DNA from: Escherichia phage GA2A
Sequence record: NC_031943.1
Strand: one strand, 5' to 3'
DNA: 40,470 nt
In this document: piece by piece, positions 1 to 40,470 of the stretch
How positions within the stretch are numbered: position 1 is the stretch's first letter
Layout of the letters: every line of letters begins with the position of its first letter
The notes under the pieces: generated by a model
The model's database searches: none
Told to the model about the DNA's origin: nothing
Seen by the model: only the letters and a program-made list of their open reading frames with translations
Position numbers and translations under genes: made by a program

Positions 1-165
1 ATCTCACAGTTCAAGAACCTCAAGTCTCCCCATAGGCCCTCTTTCAGTCCAGACCAAAGGCCCTACCCCAGTCTATCATAAGGTTAGACCGATGGTCAAG
101 ACTTCAGGTCAACGATAGGTTGTGGCTATTGGTGGTGGTGGAGACGATAGGTTGGGACTATTGGT
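1..165. repeat. Left direct terminal repeat
   Basis: 1-165 is identical to 40274-40438 at the other end of the window; T7-like genomes carry a terminal redundancy of about this size. Confidence 0.85.
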
Positions 166-200
166 CTGCCTCTGAGTCTCTATCTGTATAACCATAGGTC

Positions 201-264
201 TAACCAACCTACAGTCTAACCAACCTACAGTCTAACCAACCTACAGTCTAACCAACCTACAGTC
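201..264. repeat. Four perfect tandem copies of the 16-bp unit TAACCAACCTACAGTC, with degenerate copies to ~306
   Basis: Read directly; related CCTACAGT motifs recur near the right end (40193-40240). Confidence 0.8.
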
Positions 265-416
265 TAACCATAAGACACCAACACCTACAGTCAGAGACCT
301 ACAGTTAATAGACACACAGCTATAGACTTAAAGTCTAAGACATGTTAGTCAAAGACTATATCCTCTTACACCATGGGGGCCGACGATAGCTTAATCAATA
401 TTATTTAAAATTACCT

Positions 417-22307: not shown

Positions 22308-22310
22308 GAC

Positions 22311-22333
22311 TAAACTATCACTATAGGGAGACC
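22311..22333 (+). promoter_or_regulatory. Phage promoter (phi10 position) with long 5' UTR
   Basis: TAAACTATCACTATAGGGAGA, closest to the canonical strong T7 class III start GGGAGA; ~105-nt leader with 8-bp inverted repeat TATTACTT/AAGTAATA. Confidence 0.85.
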
Positions 22334-22433: not shown

Positions 22434-23480
22434 ATGGCAAACGTTCCGGGTCAGAAAATTGGTGCAGACCAAGGTAAAGGCCAATCTAGTGCAGACCAGC
22501 TAGCACTGTTCCTTAAGGTCTTCGCTGGTGAAGTCCTGACAGCTTTCACTCGCCGCTCTGTTACCGCTGACAAACATATTGTCCGCACCATTCAGAATGG
22601 TAAGTCCGCACAGTTCCCGGTAATGGGTCGCACCTCCGGTGTGTATCTTGCTCCCGGTGAGCGCCTGAGCGATAAGCGCAAGGGTATTAAACACACTGAG
22701 AAGGTTATCACCATTGATGGTCTGCTGACCTCTGACGTGATGATTTTCGACATCGAAGACGCCATGAACCACTATGACGTGGCGGGCGAGTATTCCAACC
22801 AGCTCGGTGAGTCTCTGGCTATCGCTGCTGATGGCGCGGTACTGGCTGAGATGGCGATTCTGTGTAACCTCCCTGCCGAATCTGACGAGAACATCGCTGG
22901 TCTGGGCAAGGCGTCCGTTCTGGAAGTTGGTACTAAAGCCGACCTGAACACTCCAGCCAAGCTGGGTGAAGCGATCATTGGTCAACTGACCATCGCACGT
23001 GCTAAGCTGACTGCCAACTACGTGCCTGCTGGCGACCGCTACTTCTATACTACGCCTGACAACTACTCCGCGATTCTGGCGGCTCTGATGCCTAACGCTG
23101 CTAACTACGCTGCGCTGATTGACCCTGAGACGGGCAACATCCGTAACGTAATGGGCTTCGTTGTGGTTGAAGTTCCTCACCTGACTCAGGGTGGTGCTGG
23201 CGAAACTCGTGGTGAAGATGGTATCTCCATTGCTTCCGGTCAGAAACACGCATTCCCGGCTACCTCCAGCTCTACCGTTAAGGTTGCTCTGGACAACGTT
23301 GTGGGCCTGTTCTCTCACCGTTCCGCTGTTGGTACTGTTAAGCTGCGCGACTTGGCGCTGGAACGTGACCGCGACGTCGATGCTCAGGGCGACCTGATTG
23401 TCGGTAAGTACGCTATGGGTCACGGCGGTCTGCGTCCAGAAGCAGCAGGCGCTCTGGTTTTCAGCCCAGCAGCTCCGTAA
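22434..23480 (+). CDS. 10A: Major capsid protein 10A
   Basis: 348 aa; LALFLKVF.GEVLTAF, GKSAQFPV, HTEKVITIDGLLT, EDAMNHYDV, LMPNAANYAALIDPE, AMGHGGLRPEAAGA match T7 gp10A. Confidence 0.97.
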   Translation: MANVPGQKIGADQGKGQSSADQLALFLKVFAGEVLTAFTRRSVTADKHIVRTIQNGKSAQFPVMGRTSGVYLAPGERLSDKRKGIKHTEKVITIDGLLTSDVMIFDIEDAMNHYDVAGEYSNQLGESLAIAADGAVLAEMAILCNLPAESDENIAGLGKASVLEVGTKADLNTPAKLGEAIIGQLTIARAKLTANYVPAGDRYFYTTPDNYSAILAALMPNAANYAALIDPETGNIRNVMGFVVVEVPHLTQGGAGETRGEDGISIASGQKHAFPATSSSTVKVALDNVVGLFSHRSAVGTVKLRDLALERDRDVDAQGDLIVGKYAMGHGGLRPEAAGALVFSPAAP

Positions 23481-23746
23481 CAACCCTTAAGATGACCGTG
23501 GCTTCGGCTCCGGTCGTCCAGACTGTTAGTGGCATTGTAGGAACGAGCATTAAGGTTGAACTCACAGAACTTGTGGATGTGACCGATTGGTCTCTGCTGG
23601 CTGTAAGTGTCGACGACCCTGCCGTAACCTACAGTCGCCGCACCAATAGTCTGTACTTTAAGGCTTCGGTGGCTGGTGACTACCAGATTATCATCAGCTA
23701 TGATGGCTCTCCTGTGAGAACCTTCAAGCTGCAAGTCACAAACTAA
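23456..23746 (+). CDS. 10B: Probable 10B C-terminal extension reached by programmed -1 frameshift
   Basis: Slippery heptamer GGTTTTC at 23456-23462 near the 10A stop; the -1 frame stays open to 23746 and encodes a beta-rich, Ig-like segment. Confidence 0.5.
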   Translation, partial: GFQPSSSVTTLKMTVASAPVVQTVSGIVGTSIKVELTELVDVTDWSLLAVSVDDPAVTYSRRTNSLYFKASVAGDYQIIISYDGSPVRTFKLQVTN

Positions 23747-23750
23747 TTGA

Positions 23751-23789
23751 AACCCCTTGGGTGCCTTCGGGTGCTTGAGGGGTTTTTTG
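23751..23789 (+). terminator. Tphi-like terminator for phage RNAP
   Basis: AACCCCTTGGGTGCCTTCGGGTGCTTGAGGGGTTTTTTG, GC stem plus U-run, same place and form as T7 Tphi. Confidence 0.9.
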
Positions 23790-23803
23790 CTTAAGGAGGG
23801 CCT

Positions 23804-24370
23804 ATGGCTCAGTACATTCCGCTTAACGCTAATGACGACTTGGATGCTGTCAACGATATGCTGGCTGCTATCGGTGAACCAGCAGTCCTACAGCTCGACG
23901 AAGGGAACGCAGACGTCTCTAACGCTCAACGTATCCTGCATCGTGTCAATCGTCAGGTCCAAGCTAAAGGCTGGAACTTTAACATCAACGAAGCTGCTGT
24001 CCTGACGCCTGATGTCCAAGACAATAAGATTCGATTCCTACCGTCTTACCTTCGGGTCATGACTGCGGGCGCTACCAGCTACTACAGTAACATGGGTGGC
24101 TATCTCTATGACCTCAGCACTCAGTCGACAACCTTCACCGGGCCGATTACAGTCGAGCTGGTGGAGATGAAGCCATTCTCCGAGATGCCTGTGGTCTTCA
24201 GGGACTACATCGTGACCAAGGCAAGCCGTGAGTTCAACGCTAAGTTCTTCGGCAGCCCTGAGTCTGAAGCATACCTGAGGGAGCAGGAAGCAGAGCTGTA
24301 CCAGCAGGTGATGGAGTACGAGATGGACACCGGGCGATACAACATGATGTCTGACATCGGGAGGGACTAA
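23804..24370 (+). CDS. 11: Tail tubular protein A
   Basis: 188 aa; blocks NDMLAAIGEP, GNAD..NAQRIL.RVNRQVQAKGWNFNI, FRDYIVTKASREFN, MEYEMD match T7 gp11. Confidence 0.95.
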   Translation: MAQYIPLNANDDLDAVNDMLAAIGEPAVLQLDEGNADVSNAQRILHRVNRQVQAKGWNFNINEAAVLTPDVQDNKIRFLPSYLRVMTAGATSYYSNMGGYLYDLSTQSTTFTGPITVELVEMKPFSEMPVVFRDYIVTKASREFNAKFFGSPESEAYLREQEAELYQQVMEYEMDTGRYNMMSDIGRD

Positions 24371-24597
24371 TGGCCACTCATAACCTCAAGATTAACCGAG
24401 AGTTCTTTGGTCCAGTGAAGCTGGGACTGAAGACCGCTGAGCTGAGACTCAACGACAGGGACTACAAGGTGGGCGATTGGCTCATCCTGAACGAGTACGA
24501 CAACGGGTACACTGGACAGCAGGTAGCACGTAAGGTTGTCCACGTGGCTGACGTAGGGTCCATAGCTCCGGGTTACGTCCTGATGAGCTGCATTTAA
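24370..24597 (+). CDS. Small ASCH/PUA-like protein inserted between tail tube genes
   Basis: 75 aa; ATG overlaps gp11 stop (TAATG) with RBS GGGAGGG; motif F.PVKLGLKTAELRLNDRDYKVGDWLILNEYD; no gene here in T7. Confidence 0.55.
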   Translation: MATHNLKINREFFGPVKLGLKTAELRLNDRDYKVGDWLILNEYDNGYTGQQVARKVVHVADVGSIAPGYVLMSCI

Positions 24598-24608
24598 CTG
24601 GAGGTGAT

Positions 24609-26978
24609 ATGCCACTTTATACACAAAGCATTAAGAACCTTAAGGGTGGAATTAGCCAACAGCCTGACATCCTTCGGTTCTCTGACCAAGGGGAGACCCA
24701 GATTAACGGATGGTCCTCTGAAAGTGATGGACTCCAGAAGCGTCCACCTACAGTCTGGAAGAAGCGACTAACCGCTCTGAACGAGGTTATCCCTGACCGG
24801 GCAAAGTTCCACCTGATTAACCGTGACGAGAATGAGCAGTATTACATCGTGTTCACTGGTAGTGATATTATGGTGTTAGACCTTGAGGGGAACCAGTACG
24901 CTGTGACTGGGGACATGAATTACGTTAACACCGACGCACCTCGTGATGACATCCGGGTTATTACAGTGGCTGACTACACGTTCATCGTCAACCGTAAGCG
25001 AGTCGTTAGGGAAGGGACTGAGGTCTCACATCCGGGATACGACATGAAGCACCGAGCGTTGATTAACCTTCGCGGTGGTCAGTACGGCAGAACGCTGACG
25101 GTCTCAATCAATGGTGGGGCCAAGGTAGAGCACACGCTCCCGGCTGGTAATAATGCTGAAGAGGACCCACCTAAGGTCGATGCTCAGTACATCGGTGCGC
25201 AACTGAGGACACTTCTGGTCGCTGCATATCCGAACTATACGTTCAACCTCGGGTCAGGCTACCTTGAGATTGTTGCTCCTGCTGGACAGTCCATCACCTC
25301 CGTAGAGACGACTGACGGTTACGCTAACCAGCTAATCACTGCGGTCATTGATACGGTACAGACTATCAGTAAGCTGCCTCTGGCGGCTCCTGAGGGTTAT
25401 ATCATCCGTATCCAAGGTGAGACCAACAGTAGCGCTGATGAATACTACGTTCGGTATGACACCCAGCGTAAGACTTGGCGTGAGACGGTTGAGCCGGGAG
25501 TGACTACAGGTCTGGACCCTGAGACAATGCCCCATGCTCTGGTTCGTCAGGTTAACGGGAACTTTACGTTCCAGACGCTGAACTGGTCTAAGCGCGGTGC
25601 TGGTAACGAGGACACTAACCCGATGCCATCCTTCGTGGATAACACCATCAACGATGTGTTCTTCTACCGTAATCGTCTTGGCTTCCTGTCTGGAGAGAAC
25701 GTTGTGATGTCTCGTTCAGCCAGCTACTTTGCGTTCTTCCCTAAGAGCGTGGCGACCCTCAGTGATGACGACCCTATTGATGTGGCTGTGAGTCACCCTC
25801 GAATCTCCATCCTGAAGTATGCCGTGCCGTTCGCTGAACAGTTGCTGCTGTGGTCGGATGAGGTTCAGTTCGTGATGACCAGCTCTGGAGTCTTGACCTC
25901 CAAGTCCATTCAACTTGATGTTGGCTCTGAGTTCGCTGTGAGTGATAATGCTCGACCGTTCGCTATTGGACGTTCAGTCTTCTTCGCTGCGCCTCGTGGA
26001 TCATTCACCAGCATTAACCGTTACTTTGCTGTGGCGGATGTGACAGACGTTAAGGACGCAGACGATACGACAGGGCACGTGCTCTCCTACATTCCGAACG
26101 GGGTCTTCGACATCCAAGGGTCTTCGACTGAGAACTTCATTACTGTGTCGACTGAGGGTGCTCCGAACAAGCTGTTTATCTACAAGTTCCTCTTCAAGGA
26201 TGGAGTGCAGCTTCAAGCCTCTTGGTCTCACTGGGAGTTGGAGCAAGGAGAGCAGATTATGGCCTCAGCCTGTATAGGGTCCTCTATGTACATCGTGCGT
26301 AAGCATGGCTACGGAGTTGACTTGGAAAAGCTGGAGTTCATCAAGGAGGCTGTGGACATCGGCGGGGAACCCTACCGTCTCCATCTTGATGGTAAAACCA
26401 CTATGGTCATCCCGACTGACGCGTTCAACCCTGACACCTACACCTCGTCCTTCGACGTTGGTGTGGCATACGGTGGAGTTTTCCCACCAGCAGGGAAGTA
26501 TGTCATGGTCGACTCCGGTGGGCGCTCCGTGCAGCTACCAGACACCGTATGGTCCAGCACCCGGTGGGTGACTGTGAAGGGCGATTGGTCAGGCAAGACA
26601 GTGTTCATCGGTCGTGTCTATAAGTTCACCTACGCCTTCTCTAGGTTCCTCATCAAGTACGAGGACCAGAACGGGACGATTACGGAAGACTCCGGTCGAC
26701 TCCAGCTTCGCCGCGCTTGGGTGAACTATCAGCGCACTGGCGCTCTGGTGATGCGTGTCGTCAACCAACAGCGTGAGTTCCTGAACACCCTTAACGGCTA
26801 CAAGCTTGGACTACAGGACATCGGTCGGGTCAACATTGGTGACGGTCAGTTCAGGTTCCCAATGAACGGAGACGCTCTGCACACTCGGTTAATCCTTGAG
26901 TCAGACTATCCGACCCCAGTGTCCATCGTTGGTTGCGGCTGGGAGGCTTCATATGCCCGTAAAGCCAAAGCTATCTAA
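24609..26978 (+). CDS. 12: Tail tubular protein B
   Basis: 789 aa versus 794 for T7; SIKNLKGGISQQPDILR, NGWSSE, VADYTFIVNR, RNRLGFLSGEN, DDDPIDVAVS, ILKYAVPF, GRLQLRRAWVNY, IVGCGWE match T7 gp12. Confidence 0.97.
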   Translation: MPLYTQSIKNLKGGISQQPDILRFSDQGETQINGWSSESDGLQKRPPTVWKKRLTALNEVIPDRAKFHLINRDENEQYYIVFTGSDIMVLDLEGNQYAVTGDMNYVNTDAPRDDIRVITVADYTFIVNRKRVVREGTEVSHPGYDMKHRALINLRGGQYGRTLTVSINGGAKVEHTLPAGNNAEEDPPKVDAQYIGAQLRTLLVAAYPNYTFNLGSGYLEIVAPAGQSITSVETTDGYANQLITAVIDTVQTISKLPLAAPEGYIIRIQGETNSSADEYYVRYDTQRKTWRETVEPGVTTGLDPETMPHALVRQVNGNFTFQTLNWSKRGAGNEDTNPMPSFVDNTINDVFFYRNRLGFLSGENVVMSRSASYFAFFPKSVATLSDDDPIDVAVSHPRISILKYAVPFAEQLLLWSDEVQFVMTSSGVLTSKSIQLDVGSEFAVSDNARPFAIGRSVFFAAPRGSFTSINRYFAVADVTDVKDADDTTGHVLSYIPNGVFDIQGSSTENFITVSTEGAPNKLFIYKFLFKDGVQLQASWSHWELEQGEQIMASACIGSSMYIVRKHGYGVDLEKLEFIKEAVDIGGEPYRLHLDGKTTMVIPTDAFNPDTYTSSFDVGVAYGGVFPPAGKYVMVDSGGRSVQLPDTVWSSTRWVTVKGDWSGKTVFIGRVYKFTYAFSRFLIKYEDQNGTITEDSGRLQLRRAWVNYQRTGALVMRVVNQQREFLNTLNGYKLGLQDIGRVNIGDGQFRFPMNGDALHTRLILESDYPTPVSIVGCGWEASYARKAKAI

Positions 26979-27005
26979 CTAATTGAATGGCCTATAGTTT
27001 CAACT

Positions 27006-27028
27006 TAACTATCACTATAGGGACTATA
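27006..27028 (+). promoter_or_regulatory. Phage promoter (phi13 position)
   Basis: TTAACTATCACTATAGGGA, flanked by inverted repeat GGCCTATAGT / ACTATAGGCC. Confidence 0.8.
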
Positions 27029-27052
27029 GGCCCTTTAAGTTATAGGAACTTT

Positions 27053-27523
27053 ATGTATATTCGTAAGGCTACTGAACCAGATGTTCACTACCTATTGGGA
27101 CATCTCTCACAGGATGACGTTAACGAGTGCAGGGCAAACTTCGGGTCGACCAAAGGTCTGACCGACAGAATGCTCAGTCACCTCACTCCGTCATCTGTGG
27201 TTTTGACGAATGGCGTAGGCGAAGTGTTTGCCTATGGAGGGAACCAAGGAGATAACGTGTGGTTCCTGACTTCAAGTCTTGTCGAAAGGTTACGTCCTAA
27301 AGACAAGCGTGAGTTCATTCAGCGCATCTCTGAGTACAGGGACTTAATGTTAGGCCAATACGGGACCATCTGGAACTACGTGTGGTCAGGCAATAAGTCT
27401 CACATTAAATTCTTGAAGTTGCTTGGCGCTAAATTCCATGATGATTGGACAGTTAGTCCAGTAACTGGTGAGCGTTTTCAATTATTCACTATCTCTAAGG
27501 AGGACGTATGTGCGAGCCAGTAA
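27053..27523 (+). CDS. 13: Internal virion protein A
   Basis: NVWFLTSSLVERLRP...FIQRISEYRDLML...IWNYVWSGNKSHIKFLKLLGAKFH...QLFTISK matches T7 gp13; start moved to ATG 27053 because track start 26987 is upstream of the promoter start site. Confidence 0.8.
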   Translation: MYIRKATEPDVHYLLGHLSQDDVNECRANFGSTKGLTDRMLSHLTPSSVVLTNGVGEVFAYGGNQGDNVWFLTSSLVERLRPKDKREFIQRISEYRDLMLGQYGTIWNYVWSGNKSHIKFLKLLGAKFHDDWTVSPVTGERFQLFTISKEDVCASQ

Positions 27524-40273: not shown

Positions 40274-40470
40274 ATCTCACAGTTCAAGAACCTCAAGTCT
40301 CCCCATAGGCCCTCTTTCAGTCCAGACCAAAGGCCCTACCCCAGTCTATCATAAGGTTAGACCGATGGTCAAGACTTCAGGTCAACGATAGGTTGTGGCT
40401 ATTGGTGGTGGTGGAGACGATAGGTTGGGACTATTGGTGGTGGTGGAGACGATAGGTTGGGACTATTGGT
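40274..40470. repeat. Right direct terminal repeat plus one extra partial tandem unit
   Basis: 40274-40438 identical to 1-165; 40439-40470 repeats the preceding unit GGTGGTGGAGACGATAGGTTGGGACTATTGGT. Confidence 0.85.

What the first reader, a model, noticed from the sequence alone, without database searches (positions are those of the whole stretch)
24370..24597. Small ASCH/PUA-like gene wedged between tail tube genes 11 and 12
T7 has gene 12 directly after gene 11. Here a 75-aa ORF with its own RBS is inserted with a 1-nt overlap onto the gp11 stop. Its sequence (FGPVKLGLKTAELRLNDRDYKVGDWLILNEYD...) resembles the small beta-barrel ASCH or DUF3850-type domains seen in phages. It would be co-expressed with structural genes at late times, which is an odd place for a nucleic-acid-binding module.
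Basis: partly seen in the sequence, partly recalled or inferred. Interest (0 to 1): 0.5.

Follow-up and report, generated by a model that had tools for sequence, protein, structure and literature searches.

The report
Small DUF3850/ASCH gene between tail genes
A real, conserved 75-residue gene of the DUF3850 (mini-ASCH, PUA-like) family sits between the two tail-tube genes of this T7-like phage; it is already annotated in well over a hundred related phages, some relatives do without it, and its biochemical role has never been tested.

The parts
24370..24597 (+). DUF3850 / mini-ASCH gene (75 aa plus TAA); called gene 11.05 in Citrobacter phage CR44b
   Evidence: ORF list; Pfam DUF3850 E 7.8e-20 and ASCH E 1.7e-5; PHROG 986 E 1.8e-33; 3IUW E 4.7e-12; dN/dS about 0.12; AF2 pLDDT 96
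24359..24365 (+). Shine-Dalgarno GGGAGGG embedded in the last Gly-Arg codons (GGG AGG) of gp11
   Evidence: Sequence. Conserved in all genomes where an ORF starts at the TAATG. Replaced by synonymous GGT CGA in Dev2, Ro103C3lw and RDN8.1, where gp12 has its own spacer SD
24368..24372 (+). TAATG stop/start overlap (gp11 stop, DUF3850 start): translational coupling signal
24430..24459 (+). Codons for K21-T-A-E24-L-R26-L-N28-D29-R30: the K/E/R residues of the ASCH octapeptide (which starts at G19, 24424-24426) plus the DUF3850-specific NDR
   Evidence: Invariant in the orthologue alignment and at least 93% conserved in 150 unbiased family representatives. Aligns with YqfB K21/T24/R26. The Lys and Glu are catalytic in TthASCH, EOLA1 and TRIP4
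23804..24370 (+). gene 11 (tail tubular protein A / gatekeeper), upstream partner
   Evidence: PF17212 E 5e-47
24600..24608 (+). gp12 Shine-Dalgarno GGAGGTGAT in the 11-nt spacer after the DUF3850 stop
   Evidence: Sequence. The same element directly follows the gp11 stop in Dev2-type genomes
24609..26978 (+). gene 12 (tail tubular protein B / nozzle), downstream partner
   Evidence: PF25675 E 0
23749..23790 (+). T-phi-like terminator hairpin plus U-run upstream of gene 11; genes 11, 11.05 and 12 would be transcribed by read-through
   Evidence: 17-bp stem, -26.8 kcal/mol; EcoDS1 annotates a terminator at the equivalent place; T7 T-phi lies at the same position
22310..22329 (+). phage-RNAP promoter before the capsid gene (phi10 equivalent), the nearest promoter upstream of the ORF
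   Evidence: 11 promoter cores in the genome, none between 22313 and 27007
27004..27023 (+). next phage promoter (phi13 equivalent), which bounds the transcription unit downstream

Best explanation
The ORF is a genuine, translated accessory gene of Kayfunavirus phages. It encodes a stand-alone DUF3850 domain, a minimal 75-residue version of the ASCH/PUA-like beta-barrel. It is transcribed late with tail genes 11 and 12, by read-through of the T-phi-like terminator from the phi10 promoter. It is translated by coupling to gp11 through a TAATG overlap and an SD built into gp11's last codons. The product is most likely a soluble, non-structural protein. By homology, its conserved K21/E24/R26 residues (with N28-D29-R30) would line the pocket that accepts a modified nucleobase, such as an N4-acylated cytosine or an N6-modified adenine, either as a free nucleoside or nucleotide or flipped out of nucleic acid. 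It would then either hydrolyse the modification, as ASCH amidohydrolases do, or simply bind it. This would give a conditional fitness benefit in nucleotide salvage or in the epigenetic and defence conflict with the host. Shown here: gene reality, selection, family and fold membership, an intact catalytic-type motif, the late transcription unit, and dispensability in nature. Inferred: the pocket geometry, the ligand, catalysis versus binding, and the benefit to the phage.
Against: No DUF3850 protein has a demonstrated activity or ligand. 3IUW is a structural-genomics entry with no stated function, and the 7 papers that mention DUF3850 (6 listed) give no biochemistry. The domain lacks the C-terminal half of a full ASCH domain (Pfam ASCH matches only positions 2-56 of 103). 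That half supplies YqfB Glu74 and TthASCH Tyr81, so catalytic competence is uncertain. Some GKER ASCH proteins (ZmASCH, TRIP4) do not hydrolyse free ac4C. I could not inspect model coordinates, so clustering of the invariant residues into one pocket is inferred by homology only. Late expression is not an obvious time for salvage or counter-defence.
Confidence: 0.5

Rival explanations
1. It is an RNA- or DNA-binding regulator, as the common 'RNA-binding protein' label implies. It would bind a nucleic acid (late mRNA, tRNA, or phage or host DNA) without chemistry, for example to modulate translation or protect ends.
For: PHROG 986 is labelled RNA-binding protein. The PUA-like clan includes many RNA and DNA readers (YTH, EVE, TRIP4-dsDNA 9KYL) that appear among weaker fold hits. 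wHTH and ParB_N fusions occur in relatives. Some ASCH proteins act on tRNA.
Against: The label comes from homology and has not been tested. The pI is about 6-8 with K+R roughly equal to D+E. YqfB-type small ASCH proteins showed no nucleic-acid binding. The dense set of invariant polar residues looks like an active site or specific pocket more than a binding surface.
Confidence: 0.2
2. It is a virion-associated cargo protein. Made with the tail and core proteins, it would be packaged in small numbers and delivered into the next cell to act at the very start of infection, for instance against a modification-dependent defence.
For: It lies in the late structural operon and is translationally coupled to gp11. 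This position is unique among DUF3850 genes, which could reflect a need for late synthesis.
Confidence: 0.12
3. It is a tail-assembly helper, or merely a translational spacer that tunes the gp11:gp12 ratio, and its own fold is irrelevant.
For: It lies between, and is translationally linked to, two proteins that assemble together.
Against: Strong purifying selection acts on the protein sequence, and the family-wide ASCH-type invariant residues are retained. Homologues occur in phages with unrelated tails and in non-structural modules. Relatives assemble the same tail without it.
Confidence: 0.04
4. It is a spurious or decaying ORF that is not expressed.
For: It is small, has no experimental detection, and some relatives lack it.
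Against: dN/dS is 0.12 with saturated dS, the length is invariant, and the SD and start are conserved. Codon usage is coding-like in this frame only. SD and codon choice co-vary. The Pfam and structure hits are highly significant.
Confidence: 0.01

Closest known systems
Orthologous 75-aa gene of other Kayfunavirus phages (e.g. Enterobacter phage ENC31, EcoDS1 AS9_0040, CR44b gene 11.05, LM33_P1, KM02 'RNA-binding protein')
   Same: Same position between genes 11 and 12, same TAATG overlap and SD, and same 75-aa length. Identity is 99% aa to ENC31 and 67-93% to the others.
   Different: Nothing essential differs. This copy belongs to the Enterobacter-phage-like branch, and its gp12 is only about 74% identical to the E. 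coli phage versions.
PDB 3IUW, E. faecalis V583 NP_814290.1 'Activating signal cointegrator' (the solved DUF3850 structure found here)
   Different: It is a bacterial (possibly prophage) protein and is acidic (pI 4.8 against 7.9). It is a structural-genomics deposit, and no function was found for it in the literature searched here.
GKER-type ASCH amidohydrolases/deacetylases (TthASCH 2DP9, human EOLA1 5Y7D, TRIP4 ASCH)
   Same: PUA-like beta-barrel and the octapeptide GxKxxExR. Lys and Glu (and in some cases Arg) are needed for removing the acetyl group from ac4C. K21/E24/R26 have the same numbering as in EOLA1.
   Different: Those proteins are 121-160+ aa, with extra helices and strands and an aromatic residue (Tth Tyr81) that DUF3850 lacks. 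Fold similarity is only moderate (EOLA1, TRIP4 and 2DP9 Foldseek E 0.1-0.9). Activity has not been tested for any DUF3850.
E. coli YqfB (ac4C amidohydrolase; 1TE7, 9KYF/9KYH)
   Different: YqfB has Thr24 where this protein has Glu24, and it uses Glu74 from a C-terminal part that is absent here. Sequence identity is 16-17%.
DUF3850 genes and fusions in other phages (Kagunavirus/Bas77, Peduovirus, Gordonia, Listeria and Enterococcus phages; Dam-DUF3850; ParB-CTPase-DUF3850)
   Same: Same domain with the same invariant residues. Kagunavirus copies are 60-65% identical.
   Different: They lie in early, replication, methylase or anti-restriction modules, or are fused to Dam, ParB_N, Lar or wHTH (ParB fusion also). 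Only in Kayfunavirus is the gene embedded in the tail operon.

Membership tests
DUF3850 (Pfam PF12961) | HMM score above the curated gathering threshold over the full model | tested here: met
   71.3 bits against 22.9; residues 3-73 match model positions 1-76 of 77
DUF3850 (Pfam PF12961) | Family-wide conserved residues (H4, K7, G19, K21, E24, R26, N28, D29, R30, G35, D36, E42, S73) | tested here: met
   All are present. Each is at least 90% conserved in 150 representatives from an exhaustive HMMER search
DUF3850 (Pfam PF12961) | Fold of the solved DUF3850 structure found here (3IUW) | tested here: met
ASCH superfamily (PF04266; PUA-like clan) | Octapeptide G-x-K-x-x-[E/T/S]-x-R | tested here: met
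   G19-L-K21-T-A-E24-L-R26. The motif definition is from the preprint read
ASCH superfamily (PF04266; PUA-like clan) | ASCH HMM above the gathering score and a beta-barrel fold shared with solved ASCH proteins | tested here: met
ASCH superfamily (PF04266; PUA-like clan) | Complete ASCH domain including the C-terminal elements that carry YqfB Glu74 / TthASCH Tyr81 | tested here: not met
   The protein ends at residue 75 and no part of it aligns to the C-terminal half of the ASCH model. DUF3850 is a truncated 'mini-ASCH'
ASCH-type ac4C amidohydrolase / deacetylase (YqfB, TthASCH, EOLA1) | Catalytic Lys and Glu/Thr (plus or minus Arg) of the octapeptide | tested here: met
   K21, E24 and R26 are present and invariant.
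ASCH-type ac4C amidohydrolase / deacetylase (YqfB, TthASCH, EOLA1) | Measured hydrolysis of N4-acetylcytidine (free or in tRNA) | not testable with these tools
   Needs purified protein. No DUF3850 member was among the 19 proteins assayed in the preprint, which has no mention of phage, 3IUW or Enterococcus
T7-like virion structural protein | Present in all phages that build the same tail; detected in virions | tested here: not met
   Absent from K1F, PR_Kaz2018, Dev2, Ro103C3lw, RDN8.1 and SH3, which have orthologous gp11 and gp12. No virion proteomics exists for carriers
'RNA-binding protein' (PHROG 986 label) | Demonstrated or at least electrostatically plausible nucleic-acid binding | tested here: inconclusive
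   HMM match E 1.8e-33, but the label is inferred. The pI is 7.9 here and 6.0-6.4 in orthologues. Binding itself cannot be tested here
Known anti-phage defence or curated bacterial families | Match to PADLOC or NCBIfam models | tested here: not met
   No hit at E <= 1 in either library

The most novel reading that the evidence does not exclude
DUF3850 could be a phage counter-measure against defences that sense modified mononucleotides. T7-like phages shred the host chromosome, which releases Dam-methylated m6-dAMP. E. coli systems such as Metis and PUA-Cal-HAD detect that molecule with a PUA-like pocket and abort infection, T7 included. A stand-alone phage PUA-like/ASCH pocket with intact K/E/R residues could sequester or chemically erase that signal, or an analogous one such as ac4C from RNA turnover. 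This would explain why the domain is so common in phages, why it is fused to Dam and Lar and neighbours methylases, and why it is accessory. No phage inhibitor of these systems is reported in the two preprints read.
Probability: 0.06. Interest if true: 0.75.

Novelty: already known. Interest (0 to 1): 0.22.

Why it matters
As a genome feature it is ordinary. The gene is annotated in most Kayfunavirus genomes, belongs to a named Pfam family with a crystal structure, and is 99% identical to a deposited protein. Its value is as a convenient entry point to a very large family with no demonstrated function: about 16,900 clusters at 50% identity, heavily phage-associated. It sits in a 40-kb, genetically tractable T7-like phage. 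Natural null alleles exist (K1F-type and Dev2-type junctions). Its catalytic-type ASCH motif is intact. All of this would make a clean deletion, complementation and biochemistry study easy. If it turned out to erase or sponge modified nucleotides, it would link the recent ASCH/ac4C work and the m6-dAMP-sensing defences to phage counter-defence.

Tried and rejected
(1) Spurious ORF or antisense gene. Rejected: the minus-strand 85-aa ORF 24367-24624 and all other frames have negative codon scores, all 11 phage promoters are on the + strand, and dN/dS supports the + frame.

(2) Recent foreign insertion. Rejected: GC 0.531 and GC3 0.684 are like the neighbouring genes and the codon score is typical.

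(3) RNA element. There are no Rfam hits in the whole window.

(5) Defence-system or NCBI-curated family naming. No hits.

(6) Virion proteomics in the literature. Phage B1 used band-based MS that cannot see 8 kDa. SH3 and SH4 were analysed as whole virions but lack the gene. Neither is informative.

(7) Literature on DUF3850. Seven papers mention it (six listed) and none gives biochemistry. The most relevant notes ParB-CTPase-DUF3850 fusions enriched in prophages and next to parA.

(8) Conservation from IMG/VR loci was discarded as evidence for residues 28-36, because those loci were retrieved with the peptide pattern NDRDYKVG. It was redone on the seed-free HMMER set.

(9) Fusion partners among 60 long representatives. 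Mostly unrecognisable, with only single cases of Lar, LexA-wHTH and MarR/Crp HTH, so the guilt-by-association signal is weak.

(10) I could not obtain model coordinates, so no pocket geometry or docking was attempted.

Full report
**1. Observation.**
- Its ATG shares one base with the TAA of the upstream gene (TAATG, 24368-24372).
- GGGAGGG at 24359-24365 lies 4-5 nt upstream of the ATG.
- Eleven bases after its stop, gp12 starts at 24609, behind GGAGGTGAT.
- The neighbours are gp11 (PF17212 Tube, E 5e-47) and gp12 (PF25675 nozzle, E 0). The capsid gene lies further upstream and gp13 further downstream.
- In T7 itself, gene 11 ends at 24818 and gene 12 starts at 24842, with nothing annotated between.

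So the description is accurate.

**2. It is a real gene.**
- Only the annotated frame has phage-like codon usage, at +0.35 bits/codon, the same as RNAP, DNA polymerase and gp12. The other five frames are negative.
- GC and GC3 match the neighbours, so the gene is not a recent foreign insert.
- In 18 related loci from IMG/VR, Logan, ENA and NCBI, the ORF is always 75 aa, always starts in the TAATG overlap and always has the SD.
- Nei-Gojobori dN/dS over 84 pairs has a median of 0.12, with dS up to about 2.
- Synonymous codon choice gives independent evidence that translation starts here. Every genome in which an ORF begins at the TAATG uses GGG AGG for gp11's last Gly-Arg, and these codons form the SD. 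This holds for this window, EcoDS1, LET1 and KM02, and also for K1F and PR_Kaz2018, where the ORF at the TAATG is gp12. The three genomes in which gp12 has its own spacer SD (Dev2, Ro103C3lw, RDN8.1) encode the same Gly-Arg with GGT CGA.

**3. Genome and transcription context.** The window is a complete Kayfunavirus-type genome (Autographiviridae, Studiervirinae).
- It is about 90% identical over 84% of the 25-kb query to phages such as Peacock and LS3.
- It has 165-bp terminal repeats.
- The phage-polymerase promoter core AACTATCACTATAGG occurs 11 times, all on the + strand, against 0.9 expected by chance. The copies flanking the ORF are at 22313 (before the capsid gene) and 27007 (before gene 13), with none between.
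- A 17-bp hairpin with a U-run at 23749-23790 (-26.8 kcal/mol) sits between the capsid region and gene 11. T7's T-phi and EcoDS1's annotated terminator lie at the equivalent place.

The ORF is therefore in the same late, terminator-read-through unit as genes 11 and 12. This is inferred from sequence; no expression was measured.

**4. Family and fold.**
- Pfam: DUF3850 (PF12961) E 7.8e-20, 71 bits against a cut-off of 22.9, full model. ASCH (PF04266) E 1.7e-5, N-terminal half of the model only.
- PHROG 986 ('RNA-binding protein'): E 1.8e-33.
- The only solved relative by sequence is 3IUW, an E. faecalis 'activating signal cointegrator' from structural genomics: E 4.7e-12 with the single sequence and 1.3e-19 with a profile.
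- An AlphaFold2 model built on 28 homologues has mean pLDDT 96.
- NCBIfam and PADLOC have no model for it.

**5. Conserved residues.** Among orthologues, G19, K21, E24, R26, N28, D29, R30, G35, D36 and S73 are invariant.
- My first family-wide alignment used loci retrieved with peptide patterns from this same protein, so I repeated the analysis on an exhaustive, seed-free HMMER search.
- That search found 16,909 cluster representatives at E <= 1e-3 and 6,575 at E <= 1e-10.
- In the top 150, these residues are each at least 90% conserved: H4, L6, K7, G19, K21, E24, R26, N28, D29, R30, G35, D36, L40, E42 and S73. All are present here.
- G19-x-K21-x-x-E24-x-R26 is the ASCH octapeptide of the 'GKER' subgroup.
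- In YqfB the equivalent K21/T24/R26 (with E74) are catalytic for N4-acetylcytidine hydrolysis.
- In EOLA1, K21/E24/R26 line the ac4C pocket, and R26A is reported as catalytically dead.
- In TthASCH, EOLA1 and TRIP4, loss of the Lys or the Glu abolishes tRNA ac4C deacetylation.
- The HMM alignment puts the phage K21/E24/R26 opposite YqfB K21/T24/R26.
- The N28-D29-R30 triplet is specific to DUF3850.

There are caveats. DUF3850 lacks the C-terminal half of ASCH, which supplies YqfB E74 and Tth Y81. Some GKER proteins do not hydrolyse free ac4C. No DUF3850 protein has been assayed.

**6. Distribution.** The gene is the normal state of the genus, but it is not universal.
- blastn finds it in 161 phage records, always next to tail tubular protein A.
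- tblastn finds 185 records at 60% identity or more, and 343 more distant hits in unrelated phages.
- A junction probe from K1F is covered at 80% or more in 221 records. Roughly five in six Kayfunavirus-type records therefore carry the gene. This is an approximate figure from two separate searches, and duplicate records are included.
- The closest protein is 99% identical (Enterobacter phage ENC31 MAGs).
- EcoDS1 annotates it as 'unknown product', CR44b as gene 11.05, and others as 'RNA-binding protein' or 'DUF3850 domain containing protein'.

It is absent in two different ways.
- K1F and PR_Kaz2018 have gp12's ATG exactly where the DUF3850 ATG would be, and they keep the GGG AGG SD. This looks like a precise ATG-to-ATG secondary loss.
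- Dev2, Ro103C3lw and RDN8.1 have gp12's own SD straight after the gp11 stop, as in T7. SH3 has the same 11-nt gp11-gp12 spacing. This may be the ancestral empty site.

These phages build the same tail, so the protein is not a required structural component. The slot is also a recurrent insertion point: KM02 carries an HNH endonuclease between the DUF3850 gene and gp12, and phage B1 has a 158-aa ORF there.

**7. Context in other phages.** In about 38 unrelated IMG/VR phage loci, the two genes on either side of DUF3850 include Lar restriction-alleviation (4), SSB, HNH, VRR-NUC, C5 DNA methylase, ParA, MazG, dCMP deaminase, PAPS reductase, DNA polymerase A, endonuclease VII, integrase and Cro/CI regulators.
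- No virion-structural family was among the 25 most frequent neighbour families of the 59 matched.
- Fusions include Dam methyltransferase-DUF3850 and ParB_N-DUF3850, and Lar, LexA-type wHTH and tandem DUF3850.
- A PNAS paper independently reports ParB-CTPase-DUF3850 fusions as phage-enriched and linked to parA.
- In the Kagunavirus-like phage Bas77 the homologue lies next to the primase.

The tail-operon position is therefore a Kayfunavirus peculiarity, and the family's usual company is DNA metabolism, modification and anti-restriction.

**8. Most likely function.** Putting this together, I think the product is a small soluble protein of 8.4 kDa and pI 7.9 (orthologues 6.0-6.4). It would use an ASCH-type pocket to accept a modified base.
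- The many invariant polar residues in 75 aa, and the lack of a basic surface, point to an enzyme or a specific small-ligand reader. They do not fit a generic RNA-binding protein.
- The nearest characterised chemistry is amidohydrolysis of N4-acylcytidine.
- The nearest contextual theme is adenine or cytosine methylation and restriction alleviation.
- Which ligand is involved, and whether it is hydrolysed or only bound, is unknown.
- Its place in the late operon is best explained as a permissive insertion site with ready-made translational coupling. Packaging into virions remains possible, but no existing data test it: the two virion MS studies on relatives are uninformative.

**9. Speculative reading.** Two recent preprints show that E. 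coli defence systems (Metis, PUA-Cal-HAD) use a PUA-like domain to sense m6-dAMP released when lytic phages, T7 included, degrade the host chromosome. Neither reports a phage counter-measure. A stand-alone phage PUA-like pocket could in principle sponge or erase such a signal. Nothing here tests that idea, and I give it a low probability.

**10. Verdict.** The feature is an already-annotated, genus-typical accessory gene of a known domain family whose biochemical function is still open. It is not novel as a feature, and it is of modest interest as an experimental handle on DUF3850.

Noticed in passing
window 23408-23746 (ORF listed as 23492-23746): The 84-aa ORF after the capsid gene lies in the -1 frame of 10A. 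That frame is open from 23408, overlapping the last 73 nt of 10A. A T7-like slippery heptamer G GTT TTC sits in 10A at about 23450-23456. This looks like a 10B-type frameshift extension (minor capsid protein) and not a separate gene. It has no Pfam hit. EcoDS1 annotates an equivalent 'region of similarity to gp10B'.
   Followed up: partly
window 26987-27523: The mechanical ORF for gp13 (178 aa) begins upstream of the phi13-type promoter core (27007-27021). The real start is probably the ATG at 27053, giving 156 aa, as called in close relatives.
   Followed up: partly
L064 4240-7245 (Logan SRR17238234 contig, a Kayfunavirus-like phage): The nozzle protein gp12 is 1001 aa instead of about 789. 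It carries an inserted GDSL/SGNH lipase-esterase domain flanked by nozzle sequence, which is an unusual enzymatic decoration of a tail-tube protein.
   Followed up: no
L075 1189-1629 (Escherichia phage KM02); also phage B1 ORF41 in PMC12785254: An HNH homing-type endonuclease (146 aa, CVDHNHETG...CRHCN) is inserted between the DUF3850 gene and gp12, with a duplicated GGAGGTGATATG start region. The gp11-gp12 junction is a recurrent insertion hotspot.
   Followed up: partly
window 182-277: Five tandem copies of a 16-nt unit (GTCTAACCAACCTACA) lie just inside the left terminal repeat. This resembles the short repeat arrays near T7 genome ends.
   Followed up: no
window 1-165 and 40274-40470: A direct terminal repeat of 165 bp is identical at both ends. 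The right end carries one extra 32-nt sub-repeat (40417-40470), so the window seems to run slightly past one repeat copy.
   Followed up: no
window 23804-26978 compared with L001-L011: There is a mosaic identity gradient against E. coli Kayfunavirus phages: gp11 about 97% aa, DUF3850 about 85%, gp12 about 74%. This suggests a recombination boundary in or near the DUF3850 gene.
   Followed up: no
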